IMG/VR virus record: IMGVR_UViG_3300006923_000005
Length of the DNA stretch: 64,000 nt
Strand: one strand, 5' to 3'
Source: a virus
Every line of letters starts with the position of its first letter. Position 1 is the stretch's first letter. The notes beneath the pieces are model-generated. The model was not told the origin of the DNA. It was given only the letters and a program-made list of their open reading frames with translations, and made no database searches. Below are positions 10,959 to 63,579 of this stretch, one piece after another. The translations under genes and the position numbers were made by a program.

Positions 10959-11933
10959 ATGCATAATGTTCGCATCGCGAAGCTAGAACTCCTCGAGGAT
11001 ATTTTTGGCACCTGCTACGAATATCGACTGGACGAAATCTCGTTTGCCTGCCCCCGCTCGGATTGTGATTCGGCTCGCAAAGGCAAAAAGAAGCTCTCTG
11101 TTAACATCGAGAAAGATAACTTTCACTGCTGGGTTTGTGCGTATAGTGGAAAGATTACACGGCTTCTTTATGACTACGGAACATCATCACACAGAGCACA
11201 ATATAATAAACTTGTAGGCATCGTTGACCTTAATGACTTTGAAAAACTACTTCGTGATGCAGCTAAAGCAGCTGAGCACGTCACTGTCGAACTACCCTAT
11301 AGTTACAAGCCTCTCACAGTTCGACCAAATGCCAGAGCCCTCGAGTACCTTGCACAGCGAGGTGTCACAACTCCTCAAATCCTGCAACGTCGAATTGGGT
11401 ATTGCAATCTTGGTCCATCAAGAGGCGCAATTGTATTTCCGTCGTACAACAGCAAGGGCCGCCTCAACTTCTTCATAATGAAGAGCATGTTGACTGGTCG
11501 CTATACACTGGCGGAGACAGAGAAATATGGCATTGTTTTCAACGAGGGTGGCATCGATTGGGGTGCTGACAATATTACATTTGTAGAGGGTATCTTTGAC
11601 GCACTGATGATTGGCGGTAATGTTGTTCCCCTCTTTGGCTCGACGTTTAGGAAAACGTATAGCCATATGAATACTAGAGCATATACTGCGCTATACCGAA
11701 AATTGAAGACAAGCAGCATCAAAAATGTCAGATTAGCACTTGATAATGATGCCGCAACAAAAGAACTACGCATTGCTGACATGCTGATTCGCGACGGCTT
11801 TACAGTATCACGGGCTCATATACCGAAGAGTGTCAACGACCTTGGTGAAATGACAAAAGAGCAAATTAGCGACCTCAATTTTACAGTTCATGATGAATGG
11901 TCGTCTATGAAAGAAATGATGCTTACCCTATGA
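10959..11933 (+). CDS. 61: DNA primase (T4 gp61-like, zinc-binding domain plus Toprim).
   Basis: Zinc-finger segment CPRSDCDS...HCWVC and Toprim-like FVEGIFDALMIGGNVVPLFG. Confidence 0.7.
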   Translation: MHNVRIAKLELLEDIFGTCYEYRLDEISFACPRSDCDSARKGKKKLSVNIEKDNFHCWVCAYSGKITRLLYDYGTSSHRAQYNKLVGIVDLNDFEKLLRDAAKAAEHVTVELPYSYKPLTVRPNARALEYLAQRGVTTPQILQRRIGYCNLGPSRGAIVFPSYNSKGRLNFFIMKSMLTGRYTLAETEKYGIVFNEGGIDWGADNITFVEGIFDALMIGGNVVPLFGSTFRKTYSHMNTRAYTALYRKLKTSSIKNVRLALDNDAATKELRIADMLIRDGFTVSRAHIPKSVNDLGEMTKEQISDLNFTVHDEWSSMKEMMLTL

Positions 11934-19195: not shown

Positions 19196-19222
19196 GCATA
19201 GTCGAGGATTTCGGAGGATTGC

Positions 19223-20393: not shown

Positions 20394-20627
20394 ATCGTAG
20401 CTTATTCACAAACCTTGTGGTTGAGGGATAGAATTGTGCTAATTAACGATAGCCGTGAAGTTGAAGGAATGCTGGCAGGCATGACGCTGTCGACGAATAC
20501 CATTCAGGATGTGACAGGTTATAAAGCTGATGAATTTGCTCCAAGAAAGCCATCACAAAGTCACTTGAAGACTAAGAGCGTATACGGCGAGAAATTTGAT
20601 GTCGACTTTTCGTGGTTGATTGGATGA
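20327..20627 (+). repeat. Diverged, recoded duplicate of the terminase 3' end (the original is 18877-19195). Its 85-aa reading frame has lost the start.
   Basis: Protein identity is about 85% (MRGYHDDLIVAYSQTLWLRDRIVLIND...). There are many synonymous changes and a 1-nt deletion at the junction. Confidence 0.75.
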
Positions 20628-20636
20628 GGGCTGATT

Positions 20637-22195: not shown

Positions 22196-22276
22196 TTACT
22201 GCGGGCAAATAAAGAAGTATAATCTATTTACAATTAGCAATCAAGTTTGATTGCAACAGAATGAAGGTAACAAACA

Positions 22277-24052: not shown

Positions 24053-24056
24053 AGGC

Positions 24057-25001
24057 ATGTTTCCGACCATCTCGAACCTGTTGCTCGAAGTTACGATGCA
24101 GCAGGTAGAACAACGCTTTGAGGGCAAGAAGTTCCGGCGTGCTATTCAAAAGCATGTAAAGCTGCCAGGTGCTCTCGAAACTACGCCTGGTGAAGTTGTT
24201 GTGATGGTCAAGGGTCTCGTTCCTGAAGACATTCCGGAGGCATCAAAAGCTGAGGCGCTGAATTGGGCGATCAGCATCTTCATCTCTGGCGAGCTCGGGA
24301 AGCATATGAACGCGAAGCACGGCGGAATTGACATCTACGTCGATCTTGTGAGTGACATTGAGACGTTCTACCAGACAAAGGAAGCGGGCTTAGATCATCT
24401 ACTTGATGAGCGTGACATCTATCGGTATACCGATGTAGCTGCTTTCATGGATGACATGCAGGATGTCGTTGTCAAGCTAGCGAACCATAGAGCTGGCAAA
24501 GTTAATCCCACCCTTGCGGCCGAGGGCTTGAATCTGATCGGAGAAACGCCCGAGTGGCAGATCTTCATCCCTGAGAATAAAGCTGCCGCCTGCAAGCTTG
24601 GGCAAAATACGAAGTGGTGCACAGCAGCGCCGGGTCTCAATTACTACGAAGAGTATCACAGCGAGGACGACCCTCTTATCATCTTCAAGCATAAGAAAGA
24701 TGAAGAGAAGGATCTGCAGTTTCACTTTGCCATTCCTTCTGACGGGCCCCCTCGTCGAGGACAGTATATTGACTACGGGTTGTATTCCGGCGGTGATTAT
24801 AGTCAATGGTACGAAGATCACGGACAGCATGAAGAAGGCCAGGGTCCACAGTTCAGCGACGTAAATGATCGCCCTGTAGCATTTCAAGTTGTGAAGACGA
24901 TGGTGCATATCTTAAAGCGCATGCCGAAGCTGCCAAGAAAAGTAAAAGACTATCTTGAGCACGACTTTGATGTGAATGCAATCGACTTCAGTCATGCATA
25001 A
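24057..25001 (+). CDS. Leader-bearing protein (MFPTISNLLLEV...) with a conserved core of unknown function. Paralog of 44905-45816.
   Basis: Shared blocks WQIFIPENKAAACKLGQNTKWCTAAPGLNYY and DPLIIFKHK. Confidence 0.6.
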   Translation: MFPTISNLLLEVTMQQVEQRFEGKKFRRAIQKHVKLPGALETTPGEVVVMVKGLVPEDIPEASKAEALNWAISIFISGELGKHMNAKHGGIDIYVDLVSDIETFYQTKEAGLDHLLDERDIYRYTDVAAFMDDMQDVVVKLANHRAGKVNPTLAAEGLNLIGETPEWQIFIPENKAAACKLGQNTKWCTAAPGLNYYEEYHSEDDPLIIFKHKKDEEKDLQFHFAIPSDGPPRRGQYIDYGLYSGGDYSQWYEDHGQHEEGQGPQFSDVNDRPVAFQVVKTMVHILKRMPKLPRKVKDYLEHDFDVNAIDFSHA

Positions 25002-25062
25002 GAGAATTTAAACTGTTCACTAAACCAAGGATAGTTATAGAAGAACCTGTGAGAGAATATAA

Positions 25063-25896
25063 ATGACGCACAACAAGAAGAGAAATCTCGGTGTAACTTG
25101 CGATCTAATCGTGCACAACATTGCGCGCGATACAATGGATGGCAACAAGCAGCGTGCTCGGGTCGGTGTTAACATGCTAGAGCGATACTTTGGTAAAGGC
25201 TCTCCGCTTGTTGAAGAGTATGCTCCATTCAGCATAGTTCGTGAAATGCGAATTGCTGATTTAAGCCAGGCTGACAGAACACTTGATCGTATCTTAGCAG
25301 CTGCGGCCGCAACAACAACAAACCTTGACCATGTTAAAACATCATTGATTCATGAGATGAATCGTGTGTATGGTCAAGATGTCTGGGGTACAAAGATTCC
25401 AGATTATAAGCTGTACGCTTCACTGCAGCAATTGATTACTGCACGCAAGTCTGGAATGCTGTCAGAAGCGCGTCTTGTATCTGAGCGTAATGCAGTAATT
25501 AGCCACATCACACAACCACTTGCCGAAGGCAGCGATCTACTTCAAGAATTCGATGATCCTCTTGTTCAAGTGATGATGACAGCTAATTTCAATAAGCGTT
25601 ACGCTGAGCTTCCAGGCCCAAATAGAAAGCTAATTGAATCGTTTGTCACTCATGGCATCGCGGGCACATTAGACAAGTTTAACGAGAAGCTTGATCAATA
25701 TAAGCAGGTTCTTGATAATCGCGTTAATCGTGCACTTGAGTCAGGAAACCTCACAGAGCATGTTATCTCTACTGTTCGTGAAGCGCAGGCAGTTCTTGAA
25801 GCTGCCGAGGGTGATGAGAGAGTAACACTCATCATGGAATATGCAGATCTCTCAAGGGAGCTTGAGGGAAATGATCATGCAATTAACCAAAAATGA
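25063..25896 (+). CDS. Hypothetical protein in the head-gene cluster.
   Basis: ORF in the gene-dense region between portal and protease. Confidence 0.5.
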   Translation: MTHNKKRNLGVTCDLIVHNIARDTMDGNKQRARVGVNMLERYFGKGSPLVEEYAPFSIVREMRIADLSQADRTLDRILAAAAATTTNLDHVKTSLIHEMNRVYGQDVWGTKIPDYKLYASLQQLITARKSGMLSEARLVSERNAVISHITQPLAEGSDLLQEFDDPLVQVMMTANFNKRYAELPGPNRKLIESFVTHGIAGTLDKFNEKLDQYKQVLDNRVNRALESGNLTEHVISTVREAQAVLEAAEGDERVTLIMEYADLSRELEGNDHAINQK

Positions 25897-35701: not shown

Positions 35702-36232
35702 TTATGTCTGTGCGACCAGGATGCCAGTTGCAACAATATTAAACACATCGATACTTGAGACATCATCTCTAGCTTTAAAAACAATCTTATCGTTTGTGCT
35801 GGCACGGAGCCGAAGACCCCACTGCAGCCCGTATGTCAACGCTGTATCAAGAACTGGGATATATCCCTCAGACGTTCCGCTAACATTACTTGCTCTAAAT
35901 GCTGTTGCTCCATCACCGAATGGTGGATTGCCATGAGCAAGTCTAATAAAATCAAAATTTGTTTTTAAGCCTTCATGCAGTGTAATACTGCCATTCGAAT
36001 CTGTAACCCATGTAAATTCTACACCGTTTGATAATGCAGCAATATTGCCAAATTTACTCAAGACTGCATTTGTATCAACTATTGAAAAAGAGATTGCTTT
36101 AACGTAGATGTCAGTAGCAAAACCCATACTATTGTAATTAGGAGACTGCCAGCTATTTTGCCCATTCTTAAAAGCATATGAAGCATAGTTTGAGCTAGAT
36201 ATATTGATGACATGCACCGTAGGAGGGCGCAA
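35702..36232 (-). CDS. Lone minus-strand gene for an Asn/Ser/Thr-rich beta protein of unknown function (start uncertain, TTG/GTG/ATG).
   Basis: The only minus-strand ORF not nested inside a + gene. The opposing + ORF (35601-35936) has a non-protein-like composition. Confidence 0.45.
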   Translation of the reverse strand: MRPPTVHVINISSSNYASYAFKNGQNSWQSPNYNSMGFATDIYVKAISFSIVDTNAVLSKFGNIAALSNGVEFTWVTDSNGSITLHEGLKTNFDFIRLAHGNPPFGDGATAFRASNVSGTSEGYIPVLDTALTYGLQWGLRLRASTNDKIVFKARDDVSSIDVFNIVATGILVAQT

Positions 36233-50091: not shown

Positions 50092-51744
50092 ATGGCACAA
50101 GATCCACTAAATCCACACGATCCTTTTTTCCCACCAGGGCCCCGTGCACCACGAAGTTTGCCGCTGACGCCAAATCCTAGAAGGCCGTCAGGTACTGCAC
50201 GTCCAAGTTCAACTCCTGCTCCGCCTCACGCACCAAAGCATGATAATTCGCCAACAAAAGCTGCCAATGATCGGCCGCGCCCAGTTAGCAAGCGTATTAA
50301 AAATCTTTCTGGGTTGAGCCCATTTAAGGGCGAGCCATATGCAGCGCTCGTTAATCGAATGAAAAATCCAGGCGCAACACCGAGTCGCTTTGCTGACGTC
50401 GGCCAGGGTATTGAAGATAGAAATACACAACCTGCAAACAGCGAGTCAGAGCTGTTTGAGGATCCTGTCGACATTAGTAGGGAAGTACCTGCACAATTTG
50501 CACACCGCAGCAGCTATGTAGGTGGTGTTGATCCCAGTGCAAACAACAGCAAAGCAGCAGTTGGTGAAAATCCATATATAGGATTGGTTGTAACACCAGT
50601 TGGAACTGACGGAAATCCAATAGACACTGCTGACGGTGCAAACGGAGATTATGATATGTTTCCGTTTTACTTTTCAGACTTTCGTAGGACCAATAGAATC
50701 ATTAGGTTTCCAGCTACTCTAACAGATCTTGCTGAAAATTACGATGTAGAGTGGAACTCCGAGACATATTACGGTAGGGTGCAGCAGGTCCCAATCTATC
50801 GTGGAACAAATCGTTCAATCACAGTCGGTTTTAAGCTTATCGCAGTTGATGATGGAACAATGTCGGGAATTGATCAAGTTAATGTCCTCTATCAGAAACT
50901 TGAAGCATTTATCTGGTTGCTTTATCCCTCATTTAGAAAAGAGAAAGTTAAATCTGCAACAGATTTTGAGCAGCAGCTAAATGATGATAGAAACTTTAAG
51001 TTCGCTCGTGAAAAAAGAATTGGTGCAGAGGGTTCGTTGGGTCAGCTAAGTGCTGCCGAAGAGATTACAATTACCCGCGATGGCAAAAATATACCAGGCT
51101 TACTACTGCGAACTGAAGCTGATCCTGTATTTGCAGCAGACGGAAAATATTTTGGCATCCCAGGCGCTGAAATTGTTAACCCTCGCACAACAGTTGAAGG
51201 GCAACGCTTAATTACTGAGCTTGAAGAAATAGTTGAAGTTGCTTCTGAGTTTGAAACTGAAGCGCGCTCGCGAATTGCGTCTGGCCTTGAGACACTAAGT
51301 ACTTCTTTGATTATTCATAAGGCTCCCCTTATTCGTATGCGAATTGGTAATATGATTAAGCGTGCAGGAAACACAGGTGATGCAAAAGGTAAAAGCGCAG
51401 CCGGCGCCGCAGCACGCCGCAATCTTGGGGTTGATAGTCTTGGTGTTAGTCTTCATGATTCAAATTTAAATCGTGATGCTGGTTTAGGCGGATATATTAC
51501 CAATGCCAGTATTGACTATCACATTGGAACAAACGAACAAAAACTACAAGTCTTATATGATCCAGCAGAGCGCGAGAAGAAAGCAAACTTCGTCAGTTAT
51601 CATATTGACATTAGTTTTAATTTTGAAGTTGTGCATGATGAGACTCCATATGGTTGGAATCCAAACCACGGCGAAGGTGATACATCCGGGATGCTATTCT
51701 ACACACGCTGGCAAGACTATAAGAAGCTGGACAAGGTAAAATAA
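50092..51744 (+). CDS. Baseplate or tail protein with a Pro-rich N-terminus.
   Basis: ORF in the tail module. Confidence 0.5.
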   Translation: MAQDPLNPHDPFFPPGPRAPRSLPLTPNPRRPSGTARPSSTPAPPHAPKHDNSPTKAANDRPRPVSKRIKNLSGLSPFKGEPYAALVNRMKNPGATPSRFADVGQGIEDRNTQPANSESELFEDPVDISREVPAQFAHRSSYVGGVDPSANNSKAAVGENPYIGLVVTPVGTDGNPIDTADGANGDYDMFPFYFSDFRRTNRIIRFPATLTDLAENYDVEWNSETYYGRVQQVPIYRGTNRSITVGFKLIAVDDGTMSGIDQVNVLYQKLEAFIWLLYPSFRKEKVKSATDFEQQLNDDRNFKFAREKRIGAEGSLGQLSAAEEITITRDGKNIPGLLLRTEADPVFAADGKYFGIPGAEIVNPRTTVEGQRLITELEEIVEVASEFETEARSRIASGLETLSTSLIIHKAPLIRMRIGNMIKRAGNTGDAKGKSAAGAAARRNLGVDSLGVSLHDSNLNRDAGLGGYITNASIDYHIGTNEQKLQVLYDPAEREKKANFVSYHIDISFNFEVVHDETPYGWNPNHGEGDTSGMLFYTRWQDYKKLDKVK

Positions 51745-51993: not shown

Positions 51994-54129
51994 GTGGCAG
52001 TAAATGAGCTGAACAAATATTTCCAACGTCTTAGAACAAGAGAATATCCAGATAATCTTGTGACAAGTGATGAAACACTTCCACCAATTATTGTTATGTC
52101 TCCACCGACAGCAGATGCAAAAGCAGCTGCAGATGTCCATGACATTCTTGAAGGTTCAATAAAGAAACTGAAAGTATCAAGAAAGCTTGATAGAGTATCT
52201 CACTCACCATTTGTTTTTGATCCTGAGACAATTGATTCTGTTTTTACTATGTTTGGTCTGAACCCGTTTCCAGACGGAGAAAAATGCATACAGACAATTG
52301 ATTATGCACAAGCACAGCCCTATATTGCGATTCATTTCTTAGACGGATTTAAGGAAGAGCCAAGGGTTGTTGTTGAACTTGACTTAAATGCAAAGTTTCA
52401 TGAAACAACAATCGATCATGCAAAGAACCCACGCCCGAACCGCGCCTTTGCTGATAGGCCTGAGGTTGCAATTGAAGACGTCACGATTCAATATGATGAA
52501 GGTCACCTCACTGGACCCTTCAATGATCTCGGAATCGCACACATTGAATATACACTAAAGTTCTTTGACGTTAGTGCAATACAACTACAGCCATACCGCC
52601 ACCTTTTTGCACTCGGCGTTCCAATGCTTTTGCGCTTTGGATGGCGAAACCTTGGTGGCAAAGACTATATTGAGGAGTTGAAGTTTCAGAACCATGACTA
52701 CACAATTAGAATCGATGAAGTTGGTGTTGCAACAATAAAGTTTCGTGCGTTGCAGCAGGGTGTCGGTGTCTATGTTTATGCTCAACTTGGTGCGTATACA
52801 AATAGGGATGCAGCAGGGAAAAGGTTCACGCGAGTCTTTAACATTTACCAAGCACGCCTTGAAAGGCAGCAGCTTGCAGATGCAAAGATTGATGAGAGAG
52901 GCCTTGCAAGCTTTAGAGAGTCAGCTGAATCAGCTGATATACTTGACAGTAAAACATTTGCGTCAGTCTTCACTAAGGATGAAGAAGACGAACCTGACGA
53001 TCTATCAACTGCTTACAGGCATAATATTGATTTGTGTATTAAGCGTATTGATGAAATCTCAACAAACAATGCTCTAAATCAATATACATTCGCTTCTCCT
53101 CTGATGTCACGCATCCAGAGTAAAGTTGGCGTAAAGACACCAATCAGGGCAGTTACACTCGGCGCGCTGATCAATGAGTTTGTTGTAAGGGATCTGATTC
53201 AGAATGATGTGCCGGTGCTTGACACAGTTATTGTCAGTAATTTCAATGAGAGGGCAGGCGCATATGCTGGTCATAGCATGCTCAACTTTCCAATTTTCAC
53301 TGACGACATAAAAGCGTGGCTGTTGGATGTTAAGAACACAAAAACAGGTGTAACAACATCTGGTTTCTTTTCATGGATTATGGCAAATCATGTTGCAAAC
53401 TACGATCATTATGTGACCAACACACCAACTGCGTTTGTTCGCCCACAGCCGCATGTCTTTACAAGGACAATCACAGTTGGGAAACGAAAGCTATCTGCGA
53501 TGTTCTTTATCGATAGAGCTGCCAATATTCCGCTTGCAGAATATTACGGCGGTTTGACACCCACACAGAAGCTTGAACTGCAGAAGACACAAGTTCCATC
53601 ACTTGCATACGGCCGTGCATGTTCACCAATAAGAACAATGAACATGGCGCTTATCAATGATCCTGGACTGCAGGATATTATTGTTGCTGAAACAATGGCA
53701 GGTAAAAGCTCATCACAGTTGCAATCTGCCATCGGCGTTCCCGCAGGGAGCGTAGCATATAGAGCGCATGAGCCCGATCTTGCCAGGCTACAATTTGAAG
53801 GTGAAATCGATCTTCTTGGAGTTCCCCACATTCCAATTTATCAGGTGATTGCAATGGATCTAAATTCAGGATTCTGGGATGGTCTCTATCAAACAATTGC
53901 AATTGAACATCGACTCGGCGCCGGTGAATTTACAACAAATATCCATATTCGCTATTTACACTTGACAGCGCAGCCATCCAAGGTTGTTGGTCTACGAAAT
54001 GATACTATTGATGCTGAGGCTGAGAAGATTCTTGAGCAACGTAGTAAAAAGCAAGATGAACAACGGCGCGCGCGCATAGAAAGCCTTCGTCAGGAAGGCC
54101 CACCGCCCTCGGTCATCCGCCGTCGCTAA
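51994..54129 (+). CDS. Large baseplate or hub-like protein.
   Basis: GTG start. Position in the tail module. Confidence 0.5.
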   Translation: MAVNELNKYFQRLRTREYPDNLVTSDETLPPIIVMSPPTADAKAAADVHDILEGSIKKLKVSRKLDRVSHSPFVFDPETIDSVFTMFGLNPFPDGEKCIQTIDYAQAQPYIAIHFLDGFKEEPRVVVELDLNAKFHETTIDHAKNPRPNRAFADRPEVAIEDVTIQYDEGHLTGPFNDLGIAHIEYTLKFFDVSAIQLQPYRHLFALGVPMLLRFGWRNLGGKDYIEELKFQNHDYTIRIDEVGVATIKFRALQQGVGVYVYAQLGAYTNRDAAGKRFTRVFNIYQARLERQQLADAKIDERGLASFRESAESADILDSKTFASVFTKDEEDEPDDLSTAYRHNIDLCIKRIDEISTNNALNQYTFASPLMSRIQSKVGVKTPIRAVTLGALINEFVVRDLIQNDVPVLDTVIVSNFNERAGAYAGHSMLNFPIFTDDIKAWLLDVKNTKTGVTTSGFFSWIMANHVANYDHYVTNTPTAFVRPQPHVFTRTITVGKRKLSAMFFIDRAANIPLAEYYGGLTPTQKLELQKTQVPSLAYGRACSPIRTMNMALINDPGLQDIIVAETMAGKSSSQLQSAIGVPAGSVAYRAHEPDLARLQFEGEIDLLGVPHIPIYQVIAMDLNSGFWDGLYQTIAIEHRLGAGEFTTNIHIRYLHLTAQPSKVVGLRNDTIDAEAEKILEQRSKKQDEQRRARIESLRQEGPPPSVIRRR

Positions 54130-54194
54130 TCACTTTAGCTTGTTTAAAACTAAGTAAATTCATAAAATCCGGCCAAGAGATATAATGAACTTAC

Positions 54195-55430
54195 ATGGAA
54201 TATTGTGTTTATACGGTTCTCGGAAGCTCTGCTTTCTGTGAGGGTTATGGTTTTCTTAGCACAATAGATCTACGCGAAGTGATGCATGCGTCTGACAGCA
54301 TATTCGTTACACACAATCGCGAGACGCTAGGCACTCAAAAAAGTGTGAATATTCACTATCTCATTAAGCTTTTAGGTGTTGGTGTGGATATTGGTAGTGT
54401 CAAGTTGACAAGCAGAAACAGCATGCTGGTCCAACTTTTCGAGTCTGGAATACGTGCCCACGTTCATGCTGGCATACCAATCCAGAATTACAAGGTTGAT
54501 GAGCTATTTCCGCAGCACACTGTAGAAAGTTACCTGCAAGCTCGTACTGCTTTGACAAGAGACATTCTTGATAAGGCAATTCTTCTTTCTTTCTTTGATG
54601 AGCATTTAGCTTTCTATAATGAGATGATCATTCCGCTTGACAGTGTATTAATTGAGATGGCAAAGCAGCCAGTTTCAACAACCACAGGAGCTGAAAAGAT
54701 TGAAATGTCACCTGCATCAACACGCCTTGGGCGCCTGTCTGTAGTTAGAGGAACAAACATCCTGAATATTAGAAAGCCTGAACGTAGCAAGTTTGTTAGT
54801 AGATTTGATGAGGGTGAATTAGTTCACTACGATTTCAAAGCAATTGATTTTCGCATCGCACTTTTTGATGCAGGCTATTCAAAGGTTGCGATGGTAGAAG
54901 ACCTGTACACACAAATTAAAGAAATGACAGGACTGCCGATGCGCCGCGACAATATCAAAGTGCTTGCGCTTGGCAGGTTGTATGGAATGGCAATGTCGAC
55001 TGCAAGTAAGAAGTTTGGGGTGCCACAATCCAGGGTCGAAGAGTACATTACCATGTTTAGCGCCGCATTTCCAGGTATTGCAACACGTCGACGAGAGCTC
55101 GAAAACGAGTTTGTTGACAATGAGGGTGTAGTTTTCAACTGGTTTGGGCGACCAGTCCACGTTGACAAGCAACGAAATGCTTATCAGAATTACATAGCAT
55201 CAAACACAGCTGATATTTGTAGTCTAGCATATCGCGCTGTATATGAAAATCTAATACAGGATACTGAGCGGAAGGTTGTTATGTTTCTTCACGACGCGAT
55301 TATTGTTGATCAAGCGCCAAATACAGAGCGGGGTGACATTGCCCAAATCATGCGGAATATTTTACCAGATTTGGGTAAGTTCCATGTGAGTATTACAAGC
55401 GGTAAAAATCTTATGGAAGCAACTAGTTAA
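54195..55430 (+). CDS. Family A (Pol I-type) DNA polymerase domain, palm and fingers only, with no exonuclease domain.
   Basis: Motif A-like DFKAIDFRIA, motif B RDNIKVLALGRLYGMAMSTASKKFGVPQ and motif C MFLHDAIIVD. Confidence 0.7.
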   Translation: MEYCVYTVLGSSAFCEGYGFLSTIDLREVMHASDSIFVTHNRETLGTQKSVNIHYLIKLLGVGVDIGSVKLTSRNSMLVQLFESGIRAHVHAGIPIQNYKVDELFPQHTVESYLQARTALTRDILDKAILLSFFDEHLAFYNEMIIPLDSVLIEMAKQPVSTTTGAEKIEMSPASTRLGRLSVVRGTNILNIRKPERSKFVSRFDEGELVHYDFKAIDFRIALFDAGYSKVAMVEDLYTQIKEMTGLPMRRDNIKVLALGRLYGMAMSTASKKFGVPQSRVEEYITMFSAAFPGIATRRRELENEFVDNEGVVFNWFGRPVHVDKQRNAYQNYIASNTADICSLAYRAVYENLIQDTERKVVMFLHDAIIVDQAPNTERGDIAQIMRNILPDLGKFHVSITSGKNLMEATS

Positions 55431-55589: not shown

Positions 55590-57557
55590 ATGAAGATTAA
55601 CGAAGATAACAGGCGAGTAGACACACTTCGCAACCGTGAGTTATGGGGAGCTGTCAAGAAGTTCATTCACAGTAAGGGTAAGCCTGACGTAAAGTTTCAG
55701 ACACGCCATGATAGAGAAACTGTTGGGCGGGCAGATGATGGTGACAAAATCCACTTGGCTCCTGCGTCAGATGTCAACGTCCTTAGAGTTATTGATGGTG
55801 ATAAAGTTGTAGTCAAGAAAGGCAGTAAAGAATATACATTCGCGCCGTCTTCATTACTCATTATGAACCTCGACGATCTTCCACTCAATCGTAAGCCTGA
55901 GGGTGTTGCCAAAGAAGAGCGCTTTCTTAAGGATGCACAAGCAGGGGAGCTTGAGATTGAGGGCCTTGATTACATTCCTGGGTCTGTAAAGTACGTCGGG
56001 AAGAGCCGTAAGAAATCAGACTTTACAATCCAGGAAAAAGATGGCACTGTTTATAACGTCTCATTCAAGTATCTTGGCGCTGGGCAGCCATCAATAATGT
56101 CAAATCTTCCAAGGCCATCAAGGGATGAGCCATGGTTGCAGACGATGATTAAGCATGAGGGTCTCAATTCTGATCATGTTGAAGAGCTAATGAAGCTTGG
56201 CATGATGAAGAAGGGTTTCCCATATTGGCATGATGATTTGGGAATGGATGACGCTGTGTTCAAGGCGCTTACCCGGGCATTCACAATGTATCTTGATCGC
56301 CACGGTGTTGTTGATCCTGTAAACGCGGTTATGACTGCCAAGGATCCCGACCTGAAGGATATTCTTTTCTTCAGATCATTCGATGATTTCTGGGATGTCC
56401 ATGGTGGGAAGGTCCACTTTGTTGCTGACACAAAAACGACGTTCAGTATAAAGTTATACACATCAGATAAAGAGCGTGAGAAGAAGGACGAAGCTGACAA
56501 GCTCGCCAAGCAAGAAAAGAAGATGGATGAGGCTTCGCACAACTTGCTTAATCTTCTTGCCGAAGGTCCCATTCCTATCAATTCGAGTTTTGTGAAAGAA
56601 ATTACAAACGAGCTGCTTCGAAAGCTCTATATCAAAATTAAGATTGGTGATGCTGAGAAAACCTTACTTGAACTTGTTGGCGGTGATGAAGAACGTGCGT
56701 TAGTTGCCATTGGTTTTGATGAAAAGATTGAGGGAACGAACCAAAAGATCTATGTCAAGGCTGGTTTATTTGTTGGAGAAGCAAGCGGTCCAGAGAAACT
56801 TTTTGCAAAAACAAATGGTGCAGCTGGTGTTGAGGATGGCGAATATAAAATCGGTATCAATCTCAATAGTTCAATTGTTGCTGGCGATCTTCTTGTTATT
56901 TATGACATTGACCATGCTTCGCTTGTCGAATCCTTTGAAGCGATTGTCGCTCATGAACTGACACACATTCGAGACAATGCAGTGACAGCAAAGAAAGATT
57001 GGGGCGAAAAGCAGATTAACAAGTATGAGCGGCAGCGTGCGTCTACAATGAAGAAATTCACTGGTTTCAATGATAGTTGGGCTGGTGAGCTGGCGTATTT
57101 GACTGACATGCCTGAAATTAAGGCTCGTGAATCTGAAACAGTGCATCTTATTAGAACGCATCTGCCACAACTTCTTGGCGATCGTTATACAACAGATAAT
57201 CATCCGCATATTTGGCCAGCAGCTAGAAAAAATAAGCTGATCAAGAATATTGTCATGAGTAAGAAGTTCATGCAGCGTGATCTTCATACGTTGATTAATA
57301 GTCAAAAATATGAAAAACTGCAAGGCCTAAAAGCATTTCGAAAGTTTCGGCGCAAGATTTTGCAAACAGCAGTTGCAGCAGCGCGTGATGAACTTAAGAA
57401 GCATTATGATAAGCGCAGCGCTGGAATGCGAGAACTTGCTGATGCTGTTGTGATGGATGAAGTAATTAACGACTACTGGTACGACATGGGTGCCGATAAG
57501 CCTGACGACTTTGAAAAGTTTCGGGCAGAAGCAAGAAAGAGATTATGGAGCAAGTAA
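55590..57557 (+). CDS. Putative zincin-like metallopeptidase (HExxH).
   Basis: AIVAHELTHIRDN contains HELTH, and the surrounding protein is long and helical. Confidence 0.5.
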   Translation: MKINEDNRRVDTLRNRELWGAVKKFIHSKGKPDVKFQTRHDRETVGRADDGDKIHLAPASDVNVLRVIDGDKVVVKKGSKEYTFAPSSLLIMNLDDLPLNRKPEGVAKEERFLKDAQAGELEIEGLDYIPGSVKYVGKSRKKSDFTIQEKDGTVYNVSFKYLGAGQPSIMSNLPRPSRDEPWLQTMIKHEGLNSDHVEELMKLGMMKKGFPYWHDDLGMDDAVFKALTRAFTMYLDRHGVVDPVNAVMTAKDPDLKDILFFRSFDDFWDVHGGKVHFVADTKTTFSIKLYTSDKEREKKDEADKLAKQEKKMDEASHNLLNLLAEGPIPINSSFVKEITNELLRKLYIKIKIGDAEKTLLELVGGDEERALVAIGFDEKIEGTNQKIYVKAGLFVGEASGPEKLFAKTNGAAGVEDGEYKIGINLNSSIVAGDLLVIYDIDHASLVESFEAIVAHELTHIRDNAVTAKKDWGEKQINKYERQRASTMKKFTGFNDSWAGELAYLTDMPEIKARESETVHLIRTHLPQLLGDRYTTDNHPHIWPAARKNKLIKNIVMSKKFMQRDLHTLINSQKYEKLQGLKAFRKFRRKILQTAVAAARDELKKHYDKRSAGMRELADAVVMDEVINDYWYDMGADKPDDFEKFRAEARKRLWSK

Positions 57558-58315: not shown

Positions 58316-58702
58316 ATGAGGAATCAAGGTGTGCTACTTTGCACATTTGTTGATGCTGAAGTAGAGCTGGATGCAGCATTAGATTATGTCAATACAACAT
58401 ATTCTCCACCAAGAGTATTTGTATTGGGTACAACAGATAGGGATGACACGCGATTTGCTTTGACTTTTAATGTTGATGAACAAACATTAAAGCAAGTAGA
58501 TTTAGGAAATGAACCTTTAGAGATGATTCGGGTTCATAGAAACAGTGGAACAAATACACTGTTTACATTAAACGCATTAAATGCCATTAAGGGCAATGGA
58601 GATATAGTAAACTGGCAAAAACATAGAAATAGCATTATTACAACCCACAAGGGCCGATTAAGACACTTTCATACACGGCTCAACTCAATTATAAATAAAT
58701 AA
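58316..58702 (+). CDS. Hypothetical protein.
   Basis: ORF. Confidence 0.4.
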   Translation: MRNQGVLLCTFVDAEVELDAALDYVNTTYSPPRVFVLGTTDRDDTRFALTFNVDEQTLKQVDLGNEPLEMIRVHRNSGTNTLFTLNALNAIKGNGDIVNWQKHRNSIITTHKGRLRHFHTRLNSIINK

Positions 58703-58749: not shown

Positions 58750-59505
58750 ATGGGCATGAATGAAGCACTACGTGCACGACTCCAAGGCGCAATTGATCGC
58801 GCCAACAATAAGCGACAGAACGACCTATACAAGCCGACAGAGAATAAGACAGAGCGTGTCAGAATTCTTCCATACGGCGAAGATGGTTACCCATTTGAGG
58901 AAGTTTTCTTCCATTATGGTGTAGGAAAGGGCGCCGTTCGCTGTCCAAAGCGCAATAACAATGAGCCTTGTGCTATTTGTGAATTCGTCTCTGAGCTCTA
59001 CGATTCTGGAAATGATGCATCTGTGCAAGTTGCCAAGGATATTCGAGCCAAGGTCAGCTATTTTACTCCCGTTCTTATTCGCGAAGGTGAAGAGGCTGGT
59101 GAGGCCAAGTGGTTCCGTCTCAATAAGACCAACTTTACTTACGTCGTAGGTAAGATGATGGATGAGGACTATGGAATGGTCCAAGATCCTGTTGACGGAA
59201 TCGATCTTAAGGTCACTCTGACGCCGAAGGATCCAGCAGCTGGCCAGAATTGGCCAAAGACTGAACTTGATTTTGCACGCAAGAATTCACCATTAATCGA
59301 TGGCGATGATGATCGTGATCTTGACGAAATCATGGAAAGCTTGAAGCCGCTGGTGCAAATCTACGGTCTTTCAACACCTGAGGAAGTTAAGGAGCGCCTT
59401 TCTGATTACCTCGACGGTGACGCAAAGGCTACTGACACATCAATAGGGACTGTTCGAGGTTCCGGATCAGATGATGCTGTTGAGGCTGCAGTAGCAAACC
59501 TATAA
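58750..59505 (+). CDS. 32: Single-stranded DNA-binding protein (T4 gp32 family).
   Basis: RVRILPYGEDGYPFEE, the zinc site CPKRNNNEPCAICEF, KVSYFTPVLIREGEE and KWFRLNKTNF align with gp32 blocks. Acidic C-terminus. Confidence 0.8.
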   Translation: MGMNEALRARLQGAIDRANNKRQNDLYKPTENKTERVRILPYGEDGYPFEEVFFHYGVGKGAVRCPKRNNNEPCAICEFVSELYDSGNDASVQVAKDIRAKVSYFTPVLIREGEEAGEAKWFRLNKTNFTYVVGKMMDEDYGMVQDPVDGIDLKVTLTPKDPAAGQNWPKTELDFARKNSPLIDGDDDRDLDEIMESLKPLVQIYGLSTPEEVKERLSDYLDGDAKATDTSIGTVRGSGSDDAVEAAVANL

Positions 59506-59881: not shown

Positions 59882-61069
59882 ATGGTAGATGATGTAATGA
59901 GTGCTGCAGAAGCCTTTGAGAAGGGTTTTGCTCCGCTAGAAGCGCAGGCACGCTTTCAACTGGATGATTTAATTTCCTCATTGAACAAGGGAAGAAAGGG
60001 TGGCCCTCTTGCAATCGATCTAAGAAAAGACGATCCATTTGAGGGGCAGAGGTTTATATCAACAGGATCAACACTTCTAGATTATGCTATTAGTAATCGC
60101 GCAGATGGCGGCATCCCTGAAGGTAAAGTAATTGACATTGCGGGCTTCAACAGCGCAGGCAAGTCGCTTATGGGCGCCGTTATCTTGGCCAACACTCAAA
60201 AAGCTGGTGGACTGGCTATCTTAATTGATACAGAGTTTGCAGCCAATTTTGAGTTTATGGATATGCTCGGTGTTGACAGGGAAAATAACTTCCTATATCT
60301 TCAGCCAAACAATCTAGAAGAATGTTTTGTTTCAATTGAGAAGATCATCAATTTGGTTATTGCAAAGCGAGCAGCAGGAAATGACAGACCTGTAACTATT
60401 GTATGGGACAGTGTGTCTGCAACAAAACCTGCTGCCCAGCACGACGCAGATTATGATTTCAACATGAATAAGAATCTCATGTTTGCAAAGCAAATTTCTG
60501 GTGGCATGTCTAAGGCACTGCAACACTTTGATAAGGCAAACGTTACGCTGGTTGTGACAAATCACTTGAAGAATAAAATTGGCGCAGCAATGGGTGAGGA
60601 TGAATTCTATAGCCCAGGCGGTGAAACAATTCCTTATTACGCTTCTGTTAGAATACGATTGCATCACAGCAAGCGCATTAAACCAAAAGACGGTGAGAAT
60701 GCCTTAAAGAGAAAAGGGATGGTCTGCCGGTCAGAAGTAATCAAAACAAGATTCGGTCCTCCCTTCAGGCAGATGAAGTTTCCAATTTATTTCGCTGAAG
60801 GAATTGGTGATATTGAGTCTTGGTATCCGGTATTACGTGAGCAAGGATATATTAGTGGAACAAATCCAAAACGTTTGCACAAAAAGGGTGCAAGCAAAGG
60901 CGAAGGAATTCCATTTCAATACAGTGACAGCGATCATTCTGGCTGGATGGAACTAATTAAAACAGATCCAGAAGCTCATGCATTGGCACTTAGTTTTCTT
61001 AATGAGCACCTAGTTATGAAGTACATTAAGCGCGGCGGGCATACAACGGAGGTTCCGGATGTCAACTAG
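59882..61069 (+). CDS. uvsX: RecA-family recombinase (UvsX-like).
   Basis: Walker A GFNSAGKS, Walker B TIVWDSVSA and RecA-like loops. Confidence 0.8.
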   Translation: MVDDVMSAAEAFEKGFAPLEAQARFQLDDLISSLNKGRKGGPLAIDLRKDDPFEGQRFISTGSTLLDYAISNRADGGIPEGKVIDIAGFNSAGKSLMGAVILANTQKAGGLAILIDTEFAANFEFMDMLGVDRENNFLYLQPNNLEECFVSIEKIINLVIAKRAAGNDRPVTIVWDSVSATKPAAQHDADYDFNMNKNLMFAKQISGGMSKALQHFDKANVTLVVTNHLKNKIGAAMGEDEFYSPGGETIPYYASVRIRLHHSKRIKPKDGENALKRKGMVCRSEVIKTRFGPPFRQMKFPIYFAEGIGDIESWYPVLREQGYISGTNPKRLHKKGASKGEGIPFQYSDSDHSGWMELIKTDPEAHALALSFLNEHLVMKYIKRGGHTTEVPDVN

Positions 61070-61292: not shown

Positions 61293-61692
61293 ATTTCAAG
61301 CCGGTGATGTAATTGATTTTGAATATAATGGCACGCACAGGCGTGCCATTGTTCTTAATGCTTCTTATCGAGGACATGTACATGTCCTAGAGCTTAATAG
61401 ACTATCACGGGCTGAAAAACAGCAATTCTATGGAATCATATATCCATATGAAGGAATGTCAAAATCATGGTTTATGAAGACTGCAAAGAAAAAGCTCAAG
61501 CGACGCCCTAACGCACACATCAAATCACCTGTATATTTTTATGCAAATTACATTGGACCACTTGCACGTGACAAACGTTGTTATAGAATTCTTAAGCCCG
61601 GCAAGATGAAACGGATTAGAGTTGTGACTGATAAAATTAGGTTTGATAAATCAAAGCCAGCAGTTGGTTTTTACAGATGGATGAAGCTCTAA
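61285..61692 (+). CDS. Hypothetical basic protein.
   Basis: ORF. Confidence 0.4.
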   Translation: MAKFQAGDVIDFEYNGTHRRAIVLNASYRGHVHVLELNRLSRAEKQQFYGIIYPYEGMSKSWFMKTAKKKLKRRPNAHIKSPVYFYANYIGPLARDKRCYRILKPGKMKRIRVVTDKIRFDKSKPAVGFYRWMKL

Positions 61693-62582
61693 TGGGCATT
61701 CCCAATCTTATGTTTGCTGGCATAAATACAGTCTACTATCATGAGGGTTGTAACGATGGTATGGCTGGTGCGTGGGCTGCTTGGTCTAATGAGCATGCAA
61801 GAAGAGATTGCAAATACATTCCATATAGTTTCGGACACAAGCCAAATGCCACTGACTACATTGATCGCAATGTTGTTTTCATTGATTCATGTCCACCACG
61901 TGACGCATTGCTTGAAATGAAGAAGCTTGCCAAGAATGTTTGGGTTCTTGACCACCACAAAACAGGTCGCGAGGAGTGTCAAGACATCGATGGAACTTAC
62001 TTCAATTATAACATGTCAGGCGCATCAATTGCTTGGCGCGCCTTTCATGGCAGCAAGAAAAAGCCACTTCTGATTTCGTATGCTGAGGATATTGATCTGT
62101 GGAAGTTTAATCTTCCGATGAGCCGAGCAGTGCAAACAGCACTCTATAATGTACCTTTTACGTTTGATGATTTTGATGCGCTTGCTGTGAACAGTGTGTT
62201 CAAGGAGCTAATAACTTCAGGAATTCAATTAACAGAGTATCGTGACAACATTCTTGATACAATTGCAAGAAACGCCCAGCGCTCTGTATGCGTTGTTGAT
62301 AGCCAGACCTATGAATTTGTTGCAGTGAATATCTCTTATTTCCATAGTGCCATGGGTGATAAACTTCGGCATGATGCTGATTTCGCTGTGATGTGGTACA
62401 TGAAAGCTGATGGGACAATTAAATTTGGGCTACGGTCAGCGCGCAGCTTTGGGGCTGATGTGTCTGTGATTGCAGCTGCATTAAATCCGCATGGCGGAGG
62501 TCATGCAAATTCTGCTGGCGCAATTGTCACAGTTGAAACAGCAGTGAAATTCCTCAACGGAGATTTTGACGATGGTGACTGA
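61677..62582 (+). CDS. DHH-DHHA1 phosphoesterase (NrnA/nanoRNase-like).
   Basis: YHEGCNDGMAGAW (motifs I and II), DHHKTG (DHH) and GGGHANSAG (the DHHA1 GGGH motif). Confidence 0.7.
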   Translation: MDEALMGIPNLMFAGINTVYYHEGCNDGMAGAWAAWSNEHARRDCKYIPYSFGHKPNATDYIDRNVVFIDSCPPRDALLEMKKLAKNVWVLDHHKTGREECQDIDGTYFNYNMSGASIAWRAFHGSKKKPLLISYAEDIDLWKFNLPMSRAVQTALYNVPFTFDDFDALAVNSVFKELITSGIQLTEYRDNILDTIARNAQRSVCVVDSQTYEFVAVNISYFHSAMGDKLRHDADFAVMWYMKADGTIKFGLRSARSFGADVSVIAAALNPHGGGHANSAGAIVTVETAVKFLNGDFDDGD

Positions 62583-63579
62583 TAAACTTGCCCCTCTTGA
62601 CGATCCAACTGGAAGACGAATTATCCTCGTAGACTTCCTCAACATGTTCATTCGTAATTATGCAGTTATTCCAACACACAACCCTAGAACAGGTGAGCCA
62701 AATGGAGGAACATTTGGCACGCTGCGTTCGTTGACTGCTGCGATAAGAAAGCTTAAGCCAACAGATGTTGTCGTCGTAACAGACGGTGCTGAGGGAAGTG
62801 TTCGTAGACGCAGCATCTTTAAAGACTACAAAGGGAATCGAAAGCCATTTCGAACAAATCGTTTCTATAATCACGGGACAGAGGAAGATGTACATAGGAA
62901 TATGCTTGAGCAGGGTGCACGTGTGCGCCACTATTTTGAGAATATGCCGATTGCCTATGTGTCAATTGATAGGTGCGAAGCAGATGATGTGATTGCCTAT
63001 CTTGCCACTGATTTTTTCAGCAAAGAAGATGAAAAATTTATTCTTTCGTCAGACAAGGATTTTTACCAGCTGTGTAGTGACGAAGATAATACATATGTCT
63101 ACAACCAAGCATCTGATGTGCTGGTGACAGAGGTCGATGTACTTGCAAAATTTGGCGTATCACCAGCAAATACAGCAGTTGCAAGAGCACTCGATGGTGA
63201 CGGTTCTGACAATATCCCAGGTATTAAAGGGCTAGGGATGAAGTCAATTACGAAATGCTTTCCAGAGCTTGCTGAGCCAACGCCAGTTGAGCTTGATCAA
63301 ATTATAGCTTGGGCTGTTGAGCGTGATGGAACAAAGTTTGATAGGATTGTTGAGCAGCAGGATGTTTTTTATCGCAACTACAAGCTGATGCAGCTTGCTG
63401 ATCCAATGCTTTCGCCTGCGCAATTGACTGAGTTACTAGAAACTGTCACTGAAGAGCTAAAGCGAAGAAAGTTAAATCAGCTTGCATTTAGACACATGCT
63501 TGCTGAGGATAGCATTACGTCAATTGCTGCGGGCCGCGTAACGCGAGATTTGCAGTTCATTACAGAATTTAAGCAGTGA
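62572..63579 (+). CDS. rnh: 5'-3' exonuclease / flap endonuclease (T4 RNase H-like).
   Basis: ILVDFLNMFIRNY, SSDKDFYQL and the H3TH motif GSDNIPGIKGLGMKS. Confidence 0.8.
   Translation: MVTDKLAPLDDPTGRRIILVDFLNMFIRNYAVIPTHNPRTGEPNGGTFGTLRSLTAAIRKLKPTDVVVVTDGAEGSVRRRSIFKDYKGNRKPFRTNRFYNHGTEEDVHRNMLEQGARVRHYFENMPIAYVSIDRCEADDVIAYLATDFFSKEDEKFILSSDKDFYQLCSDEDNTYVYNQASDVLVTEVDVLAKFGVSPANTAVARALDGDGSDNIPGIKGLGMKSITKCFPELAEPTPVELDQIIAWAVERDGTKFDRIVEQQDVFYRNYKLMQLADPMLSPAQLTELLETVTEELKRRKLNQLAFRHMLAEDSITSIAAGRVTRDLQFITEFKQ

What the first reader, a model, noticed from the sequence alone, without database searches (positions are those of the whole stretch)
54195..55430. Family A DNA polymerase domain in a T4-like genome, missing the exonuclease part and sitting among tail genes
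Motifs A, B and C of Pol I-type polymerases are present (DFKAIDFRIA; RDNIKVLALGRLYGM...FPGI; FLHDAIIVD). The ORF is only 411 aa, so it has no 3'-5' exonuclease domain. T4-like phages normally use a family B polymerase, which is not in this window. This could be a split polymerase with the N-terminal part elsewhere, or an acquired accessory polymerase.
Basis: partly seen in the sequence, partly recalled or inferred. Interest (0 to 1): 0.55.

Follow-up and report, generated by a model that had tools for sequence, protein, structure and literature searches.

The report
Exonuclease-less second DNA polymerase (divPolA1-type)
This gene is a real, probably active, stripped-down family A DNA polymerase that a large group of big uncultured phages carries as a second polymerase at the start of their replication genes; the type was first described in 2024 and its job is still unknown.

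The parts
54195..55430 (+). divPolA1-type minimal family A DNA polymerase gene, 411 aa, with no exonuclease domain
54195..54689 (+). N-terminal ~165 aa with no sequence match to Pol I. The model shows a short beta-rich start (aa 1-48, low confidence) and then three long helices (aa 73-144), read as a reduced thumb.
   Evidence: The Pfam, PDB-sequence and family-profile matches all begin at about aa 137-165. AF2 pLDDT is 35-48 for aa 1-48 and 53-79 for aa 50-165. The Exo-I-like position 6 is Tyr here and is not conserved in the family.
54717..54740 (+). STRLGRLS, the Pol A 'TxTGRL' motif (G179 and R180 near-invariant; T178 is Leu in this lineage)
54819..54866 (+). Motif A, LVHYDFKAIDFRIALF. The catalytic D213 (54831-54833) equals Taq D610. 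The steric-gate position is D218 (54846-54848), where Taq has E615.
   Evidence: Alignment to Taq. D213 is present in 127/127 family members. Position 218 is Glu in 120 and Asp in 6.
54942..54986 (+). Motif B (O-helix), RRDNIKVLALGRLYG. R251, K255, Y263 and G264 equal Taq R659, K663, Y671 and G672. L259 sits at the Taq F667 position.
55191..55214 (+). YIASNTAD (Pol A motif 6). A335 replaces the otherwise near-invariant Gln that corresponds to Taq Q754.
   Evidence: Gln in 126/127 family members; Ala only in the target and in fragment P0002, which is not among the 127
55284..55310 (+). Motif C, FLHDAIIVD. H366 and the catalytic D367 (55293-55295) equal Taq H784 and D785. A368 replaces Taq E786; 'HDA' is the family norm.
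   Evidence: D367 is present in 127/127. Position 368 is Ala in 100/127 and Glu in 8/127.
50092..51744 (+). Conserved tail/baseplate-module protein (550 aa) that lies upstream of the polymerase slot in relatives
   Evidence: A homologue lies upstream in 38/38 related loci with at least 6 kb of upstream flank, and in immuto and Mel-JY01
51994..54129 (+). Immediate upstream neighbour (711 aa), last gene of the structural block; not an exonuclease
   Evidence: No hit in Pfam, PHROGs or NCBIfam. Weak similarity to the gene upstream of mini-PolA in L007.
58316..58702 (+). 128-aa protein homologous to immuto_2, the gene directly after divPolA1 in phage immuto
   Evidence: tblastn, 32% identity, E 1e-9
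58750..59505 (+). gp32-like single-stranded DNA binding protein
   Evidence: Pfam gp32; downstream of mini-PolA in 31/31 loci
59882..61069 (+). RecA/UvsX-like recombinase
   Evidence: Pfam RecA, E 7e-35; 31/31 loci
62572..63579 (+). Stand-alone 5'-3' exonuclease / flap endonuclease (FEN)
   Evidence: Pfam 5_3_exonuc_N and 5_3_exonuc; 31/31 loci
10959..11933 (+). DnaG-like primase (a replication gene on the other side of the structural block)
   Evidence: PHROG_47 DNA primase, E 1.8e-26

Best explanation
The gene encodes a catalytically competent, proofreading-less family A DNA polymerase of the divPolA1 type. It is a ~400-aa enzyme reduced to palm, fingers and a shortened thumb. It is the second polymerase of a large (at least 176 kb) phage that has T4-like morphogenesis genes, a bacterial-style replication set (DnaB, DnaG-like primase, DnaE) and T4-type gp32/UvsX-like proteins. 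Shown: the fold, the intact active site, the absence of an exonuclease domain, the stand-alone architecture as a family trait, the invariant slot at the head of the SSB-RecA-FEN-DnaB-RNR block, and the presence of a separate DnaE on the same contig. Inferred: DnaE does the bulk processive synthesis. The small PolA does short-patch synthesis at primer ends produced by its neighbours. That means filling gaps and displacing primers for the separately encoded FEN during Okazaki-fragment maturation (a Pol I function split into two genes) and/or extending RecA/SSB-made D-loops in recombination-dependent replication. I put the identity part at about 0.9 and this specific mechanism at about 0.4.
Against: There are no biochemical data for any member. 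According to the paper, divPolA1 co-occurs with regular polymerases of family A, B or C, so a role tied specifically to DnaE is not implied. A regular PolA or PolB could fill gaps itself, which weakens the Okazaki-maturation argument. Motif C is HDA, not HDE; in Klenow the corresponding Glu (E883) contributes to catalysis (my own knowledge). The target lineage has also lost the conserved Gln equivalent to Taq Q754, so activity may be low or unusual. The nearest cultured relative by RecA, Mel-JY01, has the same module without this gene, so the gene is dispensable in at least one relative. Only about 84 kb of the ~176-kb contig could be examined.
Confidence: 0.55

Rival explanations
1. It is the core replicative polymerase of this phage lineage. 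The interchangeable 'regular' polymerase (here DnaE) would then have another role.
For: It sits at the head of the only strictly conserved replication block. In the published genomes the regular polymerase varies between families A, B and C and lies in a variable neighbourhood, and the authors conclude that divPolA1 is 'involved in replication'.
Against: It has no proofreading domain and a reduced thumb, which is a poor fit for copying at least 176 kb. A complete DnaE with a PHP domain is present. Mel-JY01 keeps the module with a PolB and no mini-PolA. No clamp-binding element was identified: the family C-terminus ends at the last conserved palm-domain segment, which in the phmmer and profile alignments extends to about Taq residue 808.
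Confidence: 0.15
2. It is one half of a split Pol I-type enzyme, and a separately encoded 3'-5' exonuclease or thumb subunit elsewhere in the genome completes it.
For: The 5'-nuclease (FEN) function is indeed encoded separately nearby. About 90 kb of the contig could not be examined.
Against: No DNA_pol_A_exo1 or RNase_T-type domain appears among the called genes of the window plus 10 kb. No exonuclease gene appears among the conserved neighbours, identified by tblastn in 80 related loci and by Pfam in two contexts. The ~400-aa form is stable across hundreds of clusters. In immuto the only PolA-type exonuclease domain belongs to the complete regular PolA.
Confidence: 0.07
3. It is not a DNA-dependent DNA polymerase. 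It could be an RNA polymerase or primer-maker, a reverse transcriptase-like enzyme, or a template-independent polymerase, like other co-opted PolA derivatives.
For: T7-type RNA polymerases also lack the Glu of HDE (HDS, my own knowledge). The published divPolA2 was suggested to be a possible RNAP. Family members, though not the target, match PADLOC 'RTasPolA', the PolA partner of UG9 defence reverse transcriptases, at E 1e-9 to 1e-14 (PMC9226505). The target lineage has Asp for Glu at the steric gate and has lost the Gln equivalent to Taq Q754.
Confidence: 0.08
4. It is a truncated or decaying remnant of a full-length PolA (frameshift, pseudogene or assembly artefact).
For: The N-terminal 165 aa have no sequence match to Pol I, and three near-invariant family positions are changed in the target.
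Against: The identical 411-aa product is called on 6 contigs. Stops in all frames upstream rule out a simple frameshift. The catalytic residues are invariant. The lineage-specific changes are shared by relatives 57-67% identical. Full-length collinear homologues exist, e.g. P0004 (406 aa, 35% identity over aa 46-408).
Confidence: 0.03

Closest known systems
divPolA1 (Yutin et al. 2024, Virol J 21:200, PMC11348598): divergent PolA of Flavobacterium phage vB_FspM_immuto and 11 uncultured relatives
   Same: A small PolA (441 aa in immuto) with a conserved palm active site, no active exonuclease and a reduced thumb. It is encoded in addition to a regular polymerase (family A, B or C) in phages of 155-190 kb, directly upstream of SSB-RecA-FEN-DnaB-RNR. 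Our contig is 176-179 kb, its terminase and capsid are closest to immuto, and the genomes are collinear across the slot.
   Different: Sequence similarity to the immuto protein is only at the generic PolA level: hhalign E 4.5e-7 to the family alignment and 0.004 to the target subgroup, and the family HMM scores immuto's regular PolA higher. Immuto has YD instead of HD in motif C. The published representatives CAB4155247 and QDP51333 could not be retrieved. A 655-aa lineage-specific gene is inserted after our gene.
Polymerase domain of bacterial DNA polymerase I (KlenTaq, Klenow, Bst large fragment)
   Different: No 5'-nuclease domain, and no 3'-5' exonuclease domain or full vestigial equivalent. 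HDA instead of HDE. Leu or Ile at the Taq F667 position. In this lineage, Asp at the steric gate and Ala at the Taq Q754 position. NCBIfam Pol I models score 36 bits against cut-offs of 600-720.
divPolA2 (barbaviruses; same paper)
   Same: A second, exonuclease-less PolA in a phage that also has a regular polymerase.
   Different: According to the paper, divPolA2 has an unrelated globular N-terminal domain, sits in a variable neighbourhood, and has RNAPs among its top structural hits. Our gene has a fixed replication context and DNAP-dominated hits.
UG9-associated PolA of defence reverse-transcriptase systems (PADLOC model RTasPolA; Mestre et al. 2022, PMC9226505)
   Same: A small (profile of 475 positions) stand-alone PolA-like protein. 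Several family members match the model at E 1e-9 to 1e-14.
   Different: The target itself does not match. No RT gene is nearby. The family is viral and was not found in prokaryotic genomes.
Cellular two-polymerase arrangements: E. coli Pol III + Pol I, B. subtilis PolC + DnaE (functional analogy only, from my own knowledge)
   Same: A family C replicase together with a second, less processive polymerase that works at primer ends, plus a 5'-flap nuclease.
   Different: Here the Pol I functions would be spread over separate genes and proofreading would be missing. The analogy is untested, and divPolA1 also occurs with family A and B replicases.

Membership tests
divPolA1 (Yutin et al. 2024) | Family A palm/fingers with the main catalytic residues conserved | tested here: met
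divPolA1 (Yutin et al. 2024) | 3'-5' exonuclease activity lost (domain inactivated or lacking) | tested here: met
   No PF01612 hit, whereas immuto's regular PolA gives one. The N-terminal 165 aa have no Pol I match. The Exo-I-like position is Tyr and is not conserved in the family.
divPolA1 (Yutin et al. 2024) | Truncated thumb | tested here: inconclusive
   The AF2 model shows three helices (aa 73-144) where Pol I has a ~110-aa thumb, but pLDDT there is only 53-79 and no residue-level superposition was available.
divPolA1 (Yutin et al. 2024) | Gene lies upstream of a conserved arrangement of replication genes | tested here: met
   In the window and extension it is followed by gp32-SSB, RecA, FEN, DnaB and RNR. 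The order is identical in immuto and in 31/31 related loci.
divPolA1 (Yutin et al. 2024) | Genome also encodes a 'regular' polymerase of family A, B or C | tested here: met
   A 1,191-aa DnaE with PHP, DNA_pol3_alpha, finger and HHH_6 domains on the same contig. The PHP domain of the visible N-terminus scores E 6e-36.
divPolA1 (Yutin et al. 2024) | Phage of 155-190 kb related to the immuto phages | tested here: met
   Contigs of 175,726 and 179,159 bp. TerL's best hit is immuto, 35.5% identity, E 6e-102. MCP hits immuto and Mel-JY01. Gene order is collinear.
divPolA1 (Yutin et al. 2024) | Specific sequence relationship to the reference divPolA1 proteins, closer than to ordinary PolA | tested here: inconclusive
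   Immuto divPolA1 against the family alignment: hhalign probability 92.6%, E 4.5e-7. Against the target subgroup: E 0.004. The family HMM misses it but hits immuto's regular PolA at 57 bits; there is a transitive link via P0033 at E 1e-9. CAB4155247 and QDP51333 are not in the available collections.
divPolA1 (Yutin et al. 2024) | The regular polymerase's neighbourhood encodes GroEL/GroES | not testable with these tools
   The contig beyond the DnaE start could not be fetched.
Bacterial DNA polymerase I (NCBIfam TIGR00593 / NF004397) | Full-length 5'-nuclease + 3'-5' exonuclease + polymerase architecture, scoring above the equivalog cut-off | tested here: not met
   36 bits against cut-offs of 600 and 720; only the C-terminal ~150 profile positions match.
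UG9-associated PolA (PADLOC RTasPolA) | Match to the model and adjacency to a UG9 reverse transcriptase | tested here: not met
   No PADLOC hit for the target at E <= 0.01. No RT domain among the neighbouring genes.
T4-type replisome (gp43 family B polymerase) | A family B polymerase as replicase | tested here: not met
   No family B domain among the called genes of the window and flanks. DnaE is present instead. The unseen ~90 kb were not checked.

The most novel reading that the evidence does not exclude
The small exonuclease-less PolA, and not the swappable 'regular' polymerase, is the ancestral core polymerase of this very large uncultured phage clade. It could be the enzyme that starts every DNA chain from primers or D-loops before hand-off. 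In the target lineage the minor-groove and sugar checks are loosened (Gln to Ala at the Taq Q754 position, Glu to Asp at the steric gate, Thr to Leu in TGRL), which would make it a specialised low-fidelity, modified-nucleotide-tolerant or ribonucleotide-tolerant polymerase.
Probability: 0.12. Interest if true: 0.7.

Novelty: new member of a known kind. Interest (0 to 1): 0.4.

Why it matters
It corrects the picture of this genome. The virion is T4-like, but the replication set is DnaB, a DnaG-like primase and DnaE plus gp32/UvsX-like proteins, with an additional minimal PolA. It also shows that the 2024 'divPolA1' observation (14 genomes) is part of a much larger, virus-restricted family: 822 clusters at 50% identity and at least 189 viral loci, with a fully fixed gene slot. 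A polymerase conserved this strictly, lacking proofreading and always next to SSB, RecA and FEN, points to an unrecognised division of labour between two polymerases in large phages. These ~400-aa enzymes are also compact PolA scaffolds of possible biotechnological interest. No member has been studied experimentally.

Tried and rejected
(1) AF2 without an alignment failed (pLDDT 30), so it was repeated with an 80-sequence alignment.
(2) The word-indexed protein search found only the protein itself. With the 40-sequence profile it found only two proteins. The exhaustive HMMER search was needed.
The target-subgroup alignment A2 found only one weak viral locus.
(4) The 428-aa gene in the equivalent region of Microcystis phage Mel-JY01 was tested as a possible mini-PolA. 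It is SAM-lyase-like instead.
(5) I tested the idea that mini-PolA travels specifically with DnaE. There is no DnaE within 10 kb in the related loci. Walking along a 200-kb contig reached only RNR, ThyX, Tmk and HSP20, and then failed because the collection is stored in fixed blocks. The top-80 contig lists for mini-PolA and DnaE do not overlap, but both are truncated. The paper reports partners of families A, B and C. The idea is therefore dropped as a specific claim.
(6) The metagenome scan did not return this phage's own contig, so the DnaE region could not be extended.
(7) The BFVD fold search gave only generic PolAs.
(8) LR796625 and MK892584 are not in the collections, the paper's supplements held nothing useful, and the cluster look-ups gave no accessions.
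(9) A shared GTT(T)AAAACTA element upstream of two genes is not enriched: 5 matches against 2.0 expected, reached by 7/100 shuffles.
(10) The sigma-70-like site TTCATA-16-TATAAT at 54159-54186 is a consensus match only.
(11) No repeats of note were found around the locus and no tRNAs in the window.

Full report
**1. Observation**

The ORF is at 54195-55430 on the + strand, starts with ATG and encodes 411 aa. The 65-nt spacer upstream contains stop codons in all three frames. The frame that carries the upstream 711-aa gene ends at 54129. The ORF therefore cannot be joined to upstream coding sequence by a single frameshift. The identical product is called on six assembled contigs, the longest 175.7-179.2 kb.

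Pfam DNA_pol_A matches above its curated cut-off (55.3 against 34.3 bits). The match covers aa 154-395 and profile positions 94-362 of 381. PHROGs assigns it to DNA polymerase families. NCBIfam Pol I equivalogs match only the C-terminal part and fall far below cut-off, at 36 bits against 600-720.

**2. Active site**

phmmer against PDB sequences aligns aa 137-391 to Taq Pol I. With the coordinates the correspondences are:
- Motif A: D213 = Taq D610, and D218 sits at the steric-gate position, Taq E615.
- Motif B: R251 = R659, K255 = K663, L259 = F667, Y263 = Y671 and G264 = G672.
- Motif C: H366 = H784, D367 = D785 and A368 = E786.

Both metal-binding aspartates and the O-helix residues that bind the incoming nucleotide are therefore present. 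The roles of these Taq and Klenow residues come from the established literature, cited from memory.

**3. A family, not an accident**

The word-indexed database returned only the protein itself. An exhaustive HMMER search of 1.84 billion cluster representatives found 822 matches at E <= 1e-3 and 207 at E <= 1e-10. Of the 150 best, nearly all are 375-425 aa long.

The closest relatives are two fragments (67% and 57% identity) and P0004, which is 406 aa and 35% identical over aa 46-408. The rest are 25-33% identical over aa ~165-400, and the 40-sequence alignment shows only weak N-terminal conservation.

In a 127-sequence alignment the following hold:
- D213, D236, R251, K255, G264 and D367 are invariant.
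- G179 and R180 of the TGRL motif are present in 126/127.
- Q335 is present in 126/127.
- H366 is present in 122/127.
- Position 218 is Glu in 120 and Asp in 6.
- Position 368 is Ala in 100 and Glu in only 8, so 'HDA' is the family's normal motif C.

The target deviates at three conserved positions: T178L, E218D and Q335A. T178L is shared with P0003 and Q335A with P0002. E218D is shared with P0004. These are fixed lineage traits and not decay. A second search seeded with P0006 gave 364 more members; the listed ones are mostly ~400 aa, apart from fragments, and are named at most 'DNA polymerase family A' or 'hypothetical protein'.

**4. Structure**

AF2 without an alignment failed. With an 80-sequence alignment the model has pTM 0.76 and mean pLDDT 74. 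Values are 84-94 over aa ~170-360, 53-79 over aa 50-165 and below 50 for aa 7-48.

- Single-subunit RNA polymerases lower: mitochondrial 14.5, T7 12.2, N4 8.4-9.8.

Foldseek against the PDB agrees. About 350 of the 411 residues therefore superpose on a Pol I polymerase domain. Three long helices (aa 73-144) occupy the place of the thumb. The first ~50 residues are a low-confidence beta-rich element. No exonuclease domain is detectable by Pfam, whereas the regular PolA of phage immuto yields DNA_pol_A_exo1 in the same kind of scan.

**5. Genomic setting**

Precomputed Pfam calls along the contig show a T4-like morphogenesis block: Terminase_6N, Portal_T4, Peptidase_S77, Gp23, gp13, gp15, sheath and T4_baseplate. 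This block runs up to the 711-aa gene that ends at 54129.

After the polymerase come:
- a 655-aa orphan;
- small ORFs;
- a gp32-like SSB and a RecA/UvsX;
- a weak DHHA1-like protein;
- a stand-alone 5'-3' exonuclease (FEN);
- beyond the window, DnaB, the RNR large subunit and several small genes;
- about 17 kb downstream of the polymerase, a 1,191-aa DnaE with PHP, DNA_pol3_alpha, DNA_pol3_finger and HHH_6 domains. I confirmed the PHP domain on the visible 277 aa at E 6e-36.

Upstream of the structural block lie a RuvC-like resolvase, a DnaG-like primase and an SbcD-SbcC fusion. No family B polymerase and no DEDD exonuclease appear among the called genes of the ~84 kb examined. The gene is therefore at the tail-to-replication junction, and the genome's regular polymerase is family C.

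**6. Conserved synteny**

A scan of IMG/VR with a sub-alignment found 189 viral loci, on contigs of up to 298 kb. tblastn of all window proteins against the 80 retained loci gave:
- Among the 31 loci with at least 9 kb downstream, all have SSB, RecA, FEN and DnaB, and 30 have RNR.
- All 45 loci that contain the four genes have them in the same order.
- All 38 loci with at least 6 kb upstream have a homologue of our 550-aa tail-module protein.

Two further contexts, on 128-kb and 219-kb contigs, show the same order. They carry extra HD, dUTPase and actin-like genes. The 655-aa and 711-aa neighbours are not conserved. A pattern-based scan of one genome from each of 185,579 bacterial and archaeal species found no relative. 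No record in the 50,697-phage collection matches P0006 at E <= 1e-8, and none matches the target beyond ~25% identity to ordinary PolAs.

**7. Link to the literature**

Yutin et al. [quoted passage not shown] It is a divergent PolA with a conserved palm, a truncated thumb and a lost exonuclease. It is present in addition to a regular polymerase of family A, B or C, and it lies upstream of a conserved set of replication genes. No other paper in the library mentions it.

Our phage's terminase has its best hit among all phage records in the immuto phages (35.5% identity, E 6e-102). The capsid protein also points to immuto and to Microcystis phage Mel-JY01.

In immuto_3-5A, gene 1 is a 441-aa 'DNA polymerase family A'. 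It is followed by two small genes, SSB, RecA, 5'-3' exonuclease, DnaB and RNR. A complete 777-aa PolA lies 38 kb away beside GroES and GroEL. The end of the linear record carries sheath, tube, baseplate hub, tape measure and more tail genes.

tblastn shows that the two genomes are collinear across the junction. The gene right after immuto divPolA1 (immuto_2) is homologous to our 128-aa ORF at 58316-58702. Our gene is thus the positional counterpart of divPolA1.

At the sequence level the link is weak:
- hhalign of immuto divPolA1 against the family alignment gives probability 92.6%, E 4.5e-7 and 14% identity.
- Against the target subgroup it gives E 0.004.
- The family HMM does not detect it but scores immuto's regular PolA at 57 bits.
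- Immuto divPolA1 does hit family members P0033 (E 1e-9) and P0150 (E 1e-6).

The published representatives CAB4155247 and QDP51333 were not retrievable. I therefore file the gene under divPolA1 on architecture, slot, lineage and partner polymerase, with sequence-specific membership left open.

**8. How it probably works**

Shown: a PolA polymerase domain with a complete catalytic centre; no exonuclease; a stand-alone form under purifying selection; a fixed position at the head of the SSB-RecA-FEN-DnaB-RNR block; and a separate DnaE on the same contig.

Inferred: DnaE, whose PHP domain may supply proofreading, is the processive replicase. The small PolA carries out short DNA synthesis at primer termini. 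Two versions fit the neighbours. One is gap filling and primer displacement feeding the separate FEN during Okazaki-fragment maturation, which amounts to Pol I split into genes. The other is extension of RecA/SSB-generated D-loops in recombination-dependent replication.

Arguments against a DnaE-specific role:
- The paper finds divPolA1 with replicases of all three families.
- Mel-JY01 keeps the module with a PolB and no mini-PolA.

My attempt to test co-occurrence across the family was inconclusive.

**9. Verdict**

The feature is a divergent new member of a recently described but functionally uncharacterised kind. The added value here has four parts: the correction of the replicase type (DnaE); the demonstration that the ~400-aa form is a very large, virus-restricted family with a fully fixed slot; residue-level conservation data; and the lineage-specific changes at the steric-gate and Taq Q754-equivalent positions.

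Interest is moderate (0.4). It is already in the literature at the in-silico level, but it poses a clear and testable question about two-polymerase replication in large phages.

Noticed in passing
L002 20176-21008 (about 8.6 kb beyond the 3' end of the window, on the same contig): A 1,191-aa DnaE-type family C DNA polymerase (PHP, DNA_pol3_alpha, finger, HHH_6) is encoded about 17 kb downstream of the PolA gene. The phage combines T4-like virion genes with a DnaB, DnaG-like primase and DnaE replication set.
   Followed up: partly
window 55590-57557 (+): A 655-aa ORF directly after the polymerase has no hit in Pfam, PHROGs, NCBIfam or PADLOC. It carries an HExxH motif (HELTH at aa 455). It is absent from that position in the 80 related loci and in immuto, so it is a lineage-specific insertion between divPolA1 and the SSB.
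   Followed up: partly
window 11897-15019 (+): A single ~1,030-aa ORF combines an SbcD/Mre11-like phosphoesterase (aa 11-328) with an SbcC/Rad50-like ATPase (aa 396-1029). These are separate proteins (gp47 and gp46) in T4 (the T4 comparison is from memory).
   Followed up: no
window 61677-62582 (+): A 301-aa protein between RecA and FEN has a weak, sub-threshold DHHA1 match (E 1.4e-4, 22.7 against 25.9 bits). It may be a RecJ/NrnA-like phosphoesterase.
   Followed up: no
L095 13737-16491: In a related 45-kb contig the RecA gene appears split. A 255-aa RecA_N product and a 138-aa RecA_N (weak) product are separated by a Vsr/DUF559-like endonuclease gene, which suggests a homing-endonuclease insertion. 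The 219-kb relative L096 has an intact 408-aa RecA.
   Followed up: no
L091 3713-5338 and L092 9827-11452: The N-terminal coding region of DnaE relatives is interrupted by about 700 bp between query residues ~177 and ~171. This may be an intein or an intron.
   Followed up: no
L095 17246-18250; L096 16935-17939: Related phages encode a 334-aa actin-like protein (Pfam Volactin) inside the replication block, between dUTPase and FEN. No counterpart was seen in our window.
   Followed up: no
L086 (Microcystis phage Mel-JY01, PP395634) 17708-25481: This phage has the closest RecA among cultured phages. It keeps the order gp32-RecA-FEN-helicase-RNR but has a SAM-lyase-like 428-aa gene where mini-PolA would be, and it carries a family B polymerase. 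Its 346-aa 'DNA polymerase I' annotation is in fact only a FEN.
   Followed up: yes
window 35702-36232 (-): This is the only gene called on the minus strand in the stretches of the contig examined (about 84 kb). It encodes 171-176 aa, has no Pfam hit, and sits between the capsid region and the gp13-like gene.
   Followed up: no
window 54159-54186 (+): A sigma-70-like site, TTCATA-16 nt-TATAAT (10/12), ends 8 nt before the ATG of the polymerase gene. This is a consensus match only, and there is no clear Shine-Dalgarno sequence.
   Followed up: no
whole window: No tRNA or tmRNA genes occur in the 64 kb, whereas the related phage immuto has a tRNA cluster and a full 7-deazaguanine DNA-modification gene set near its replication block.
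   Followed up: no
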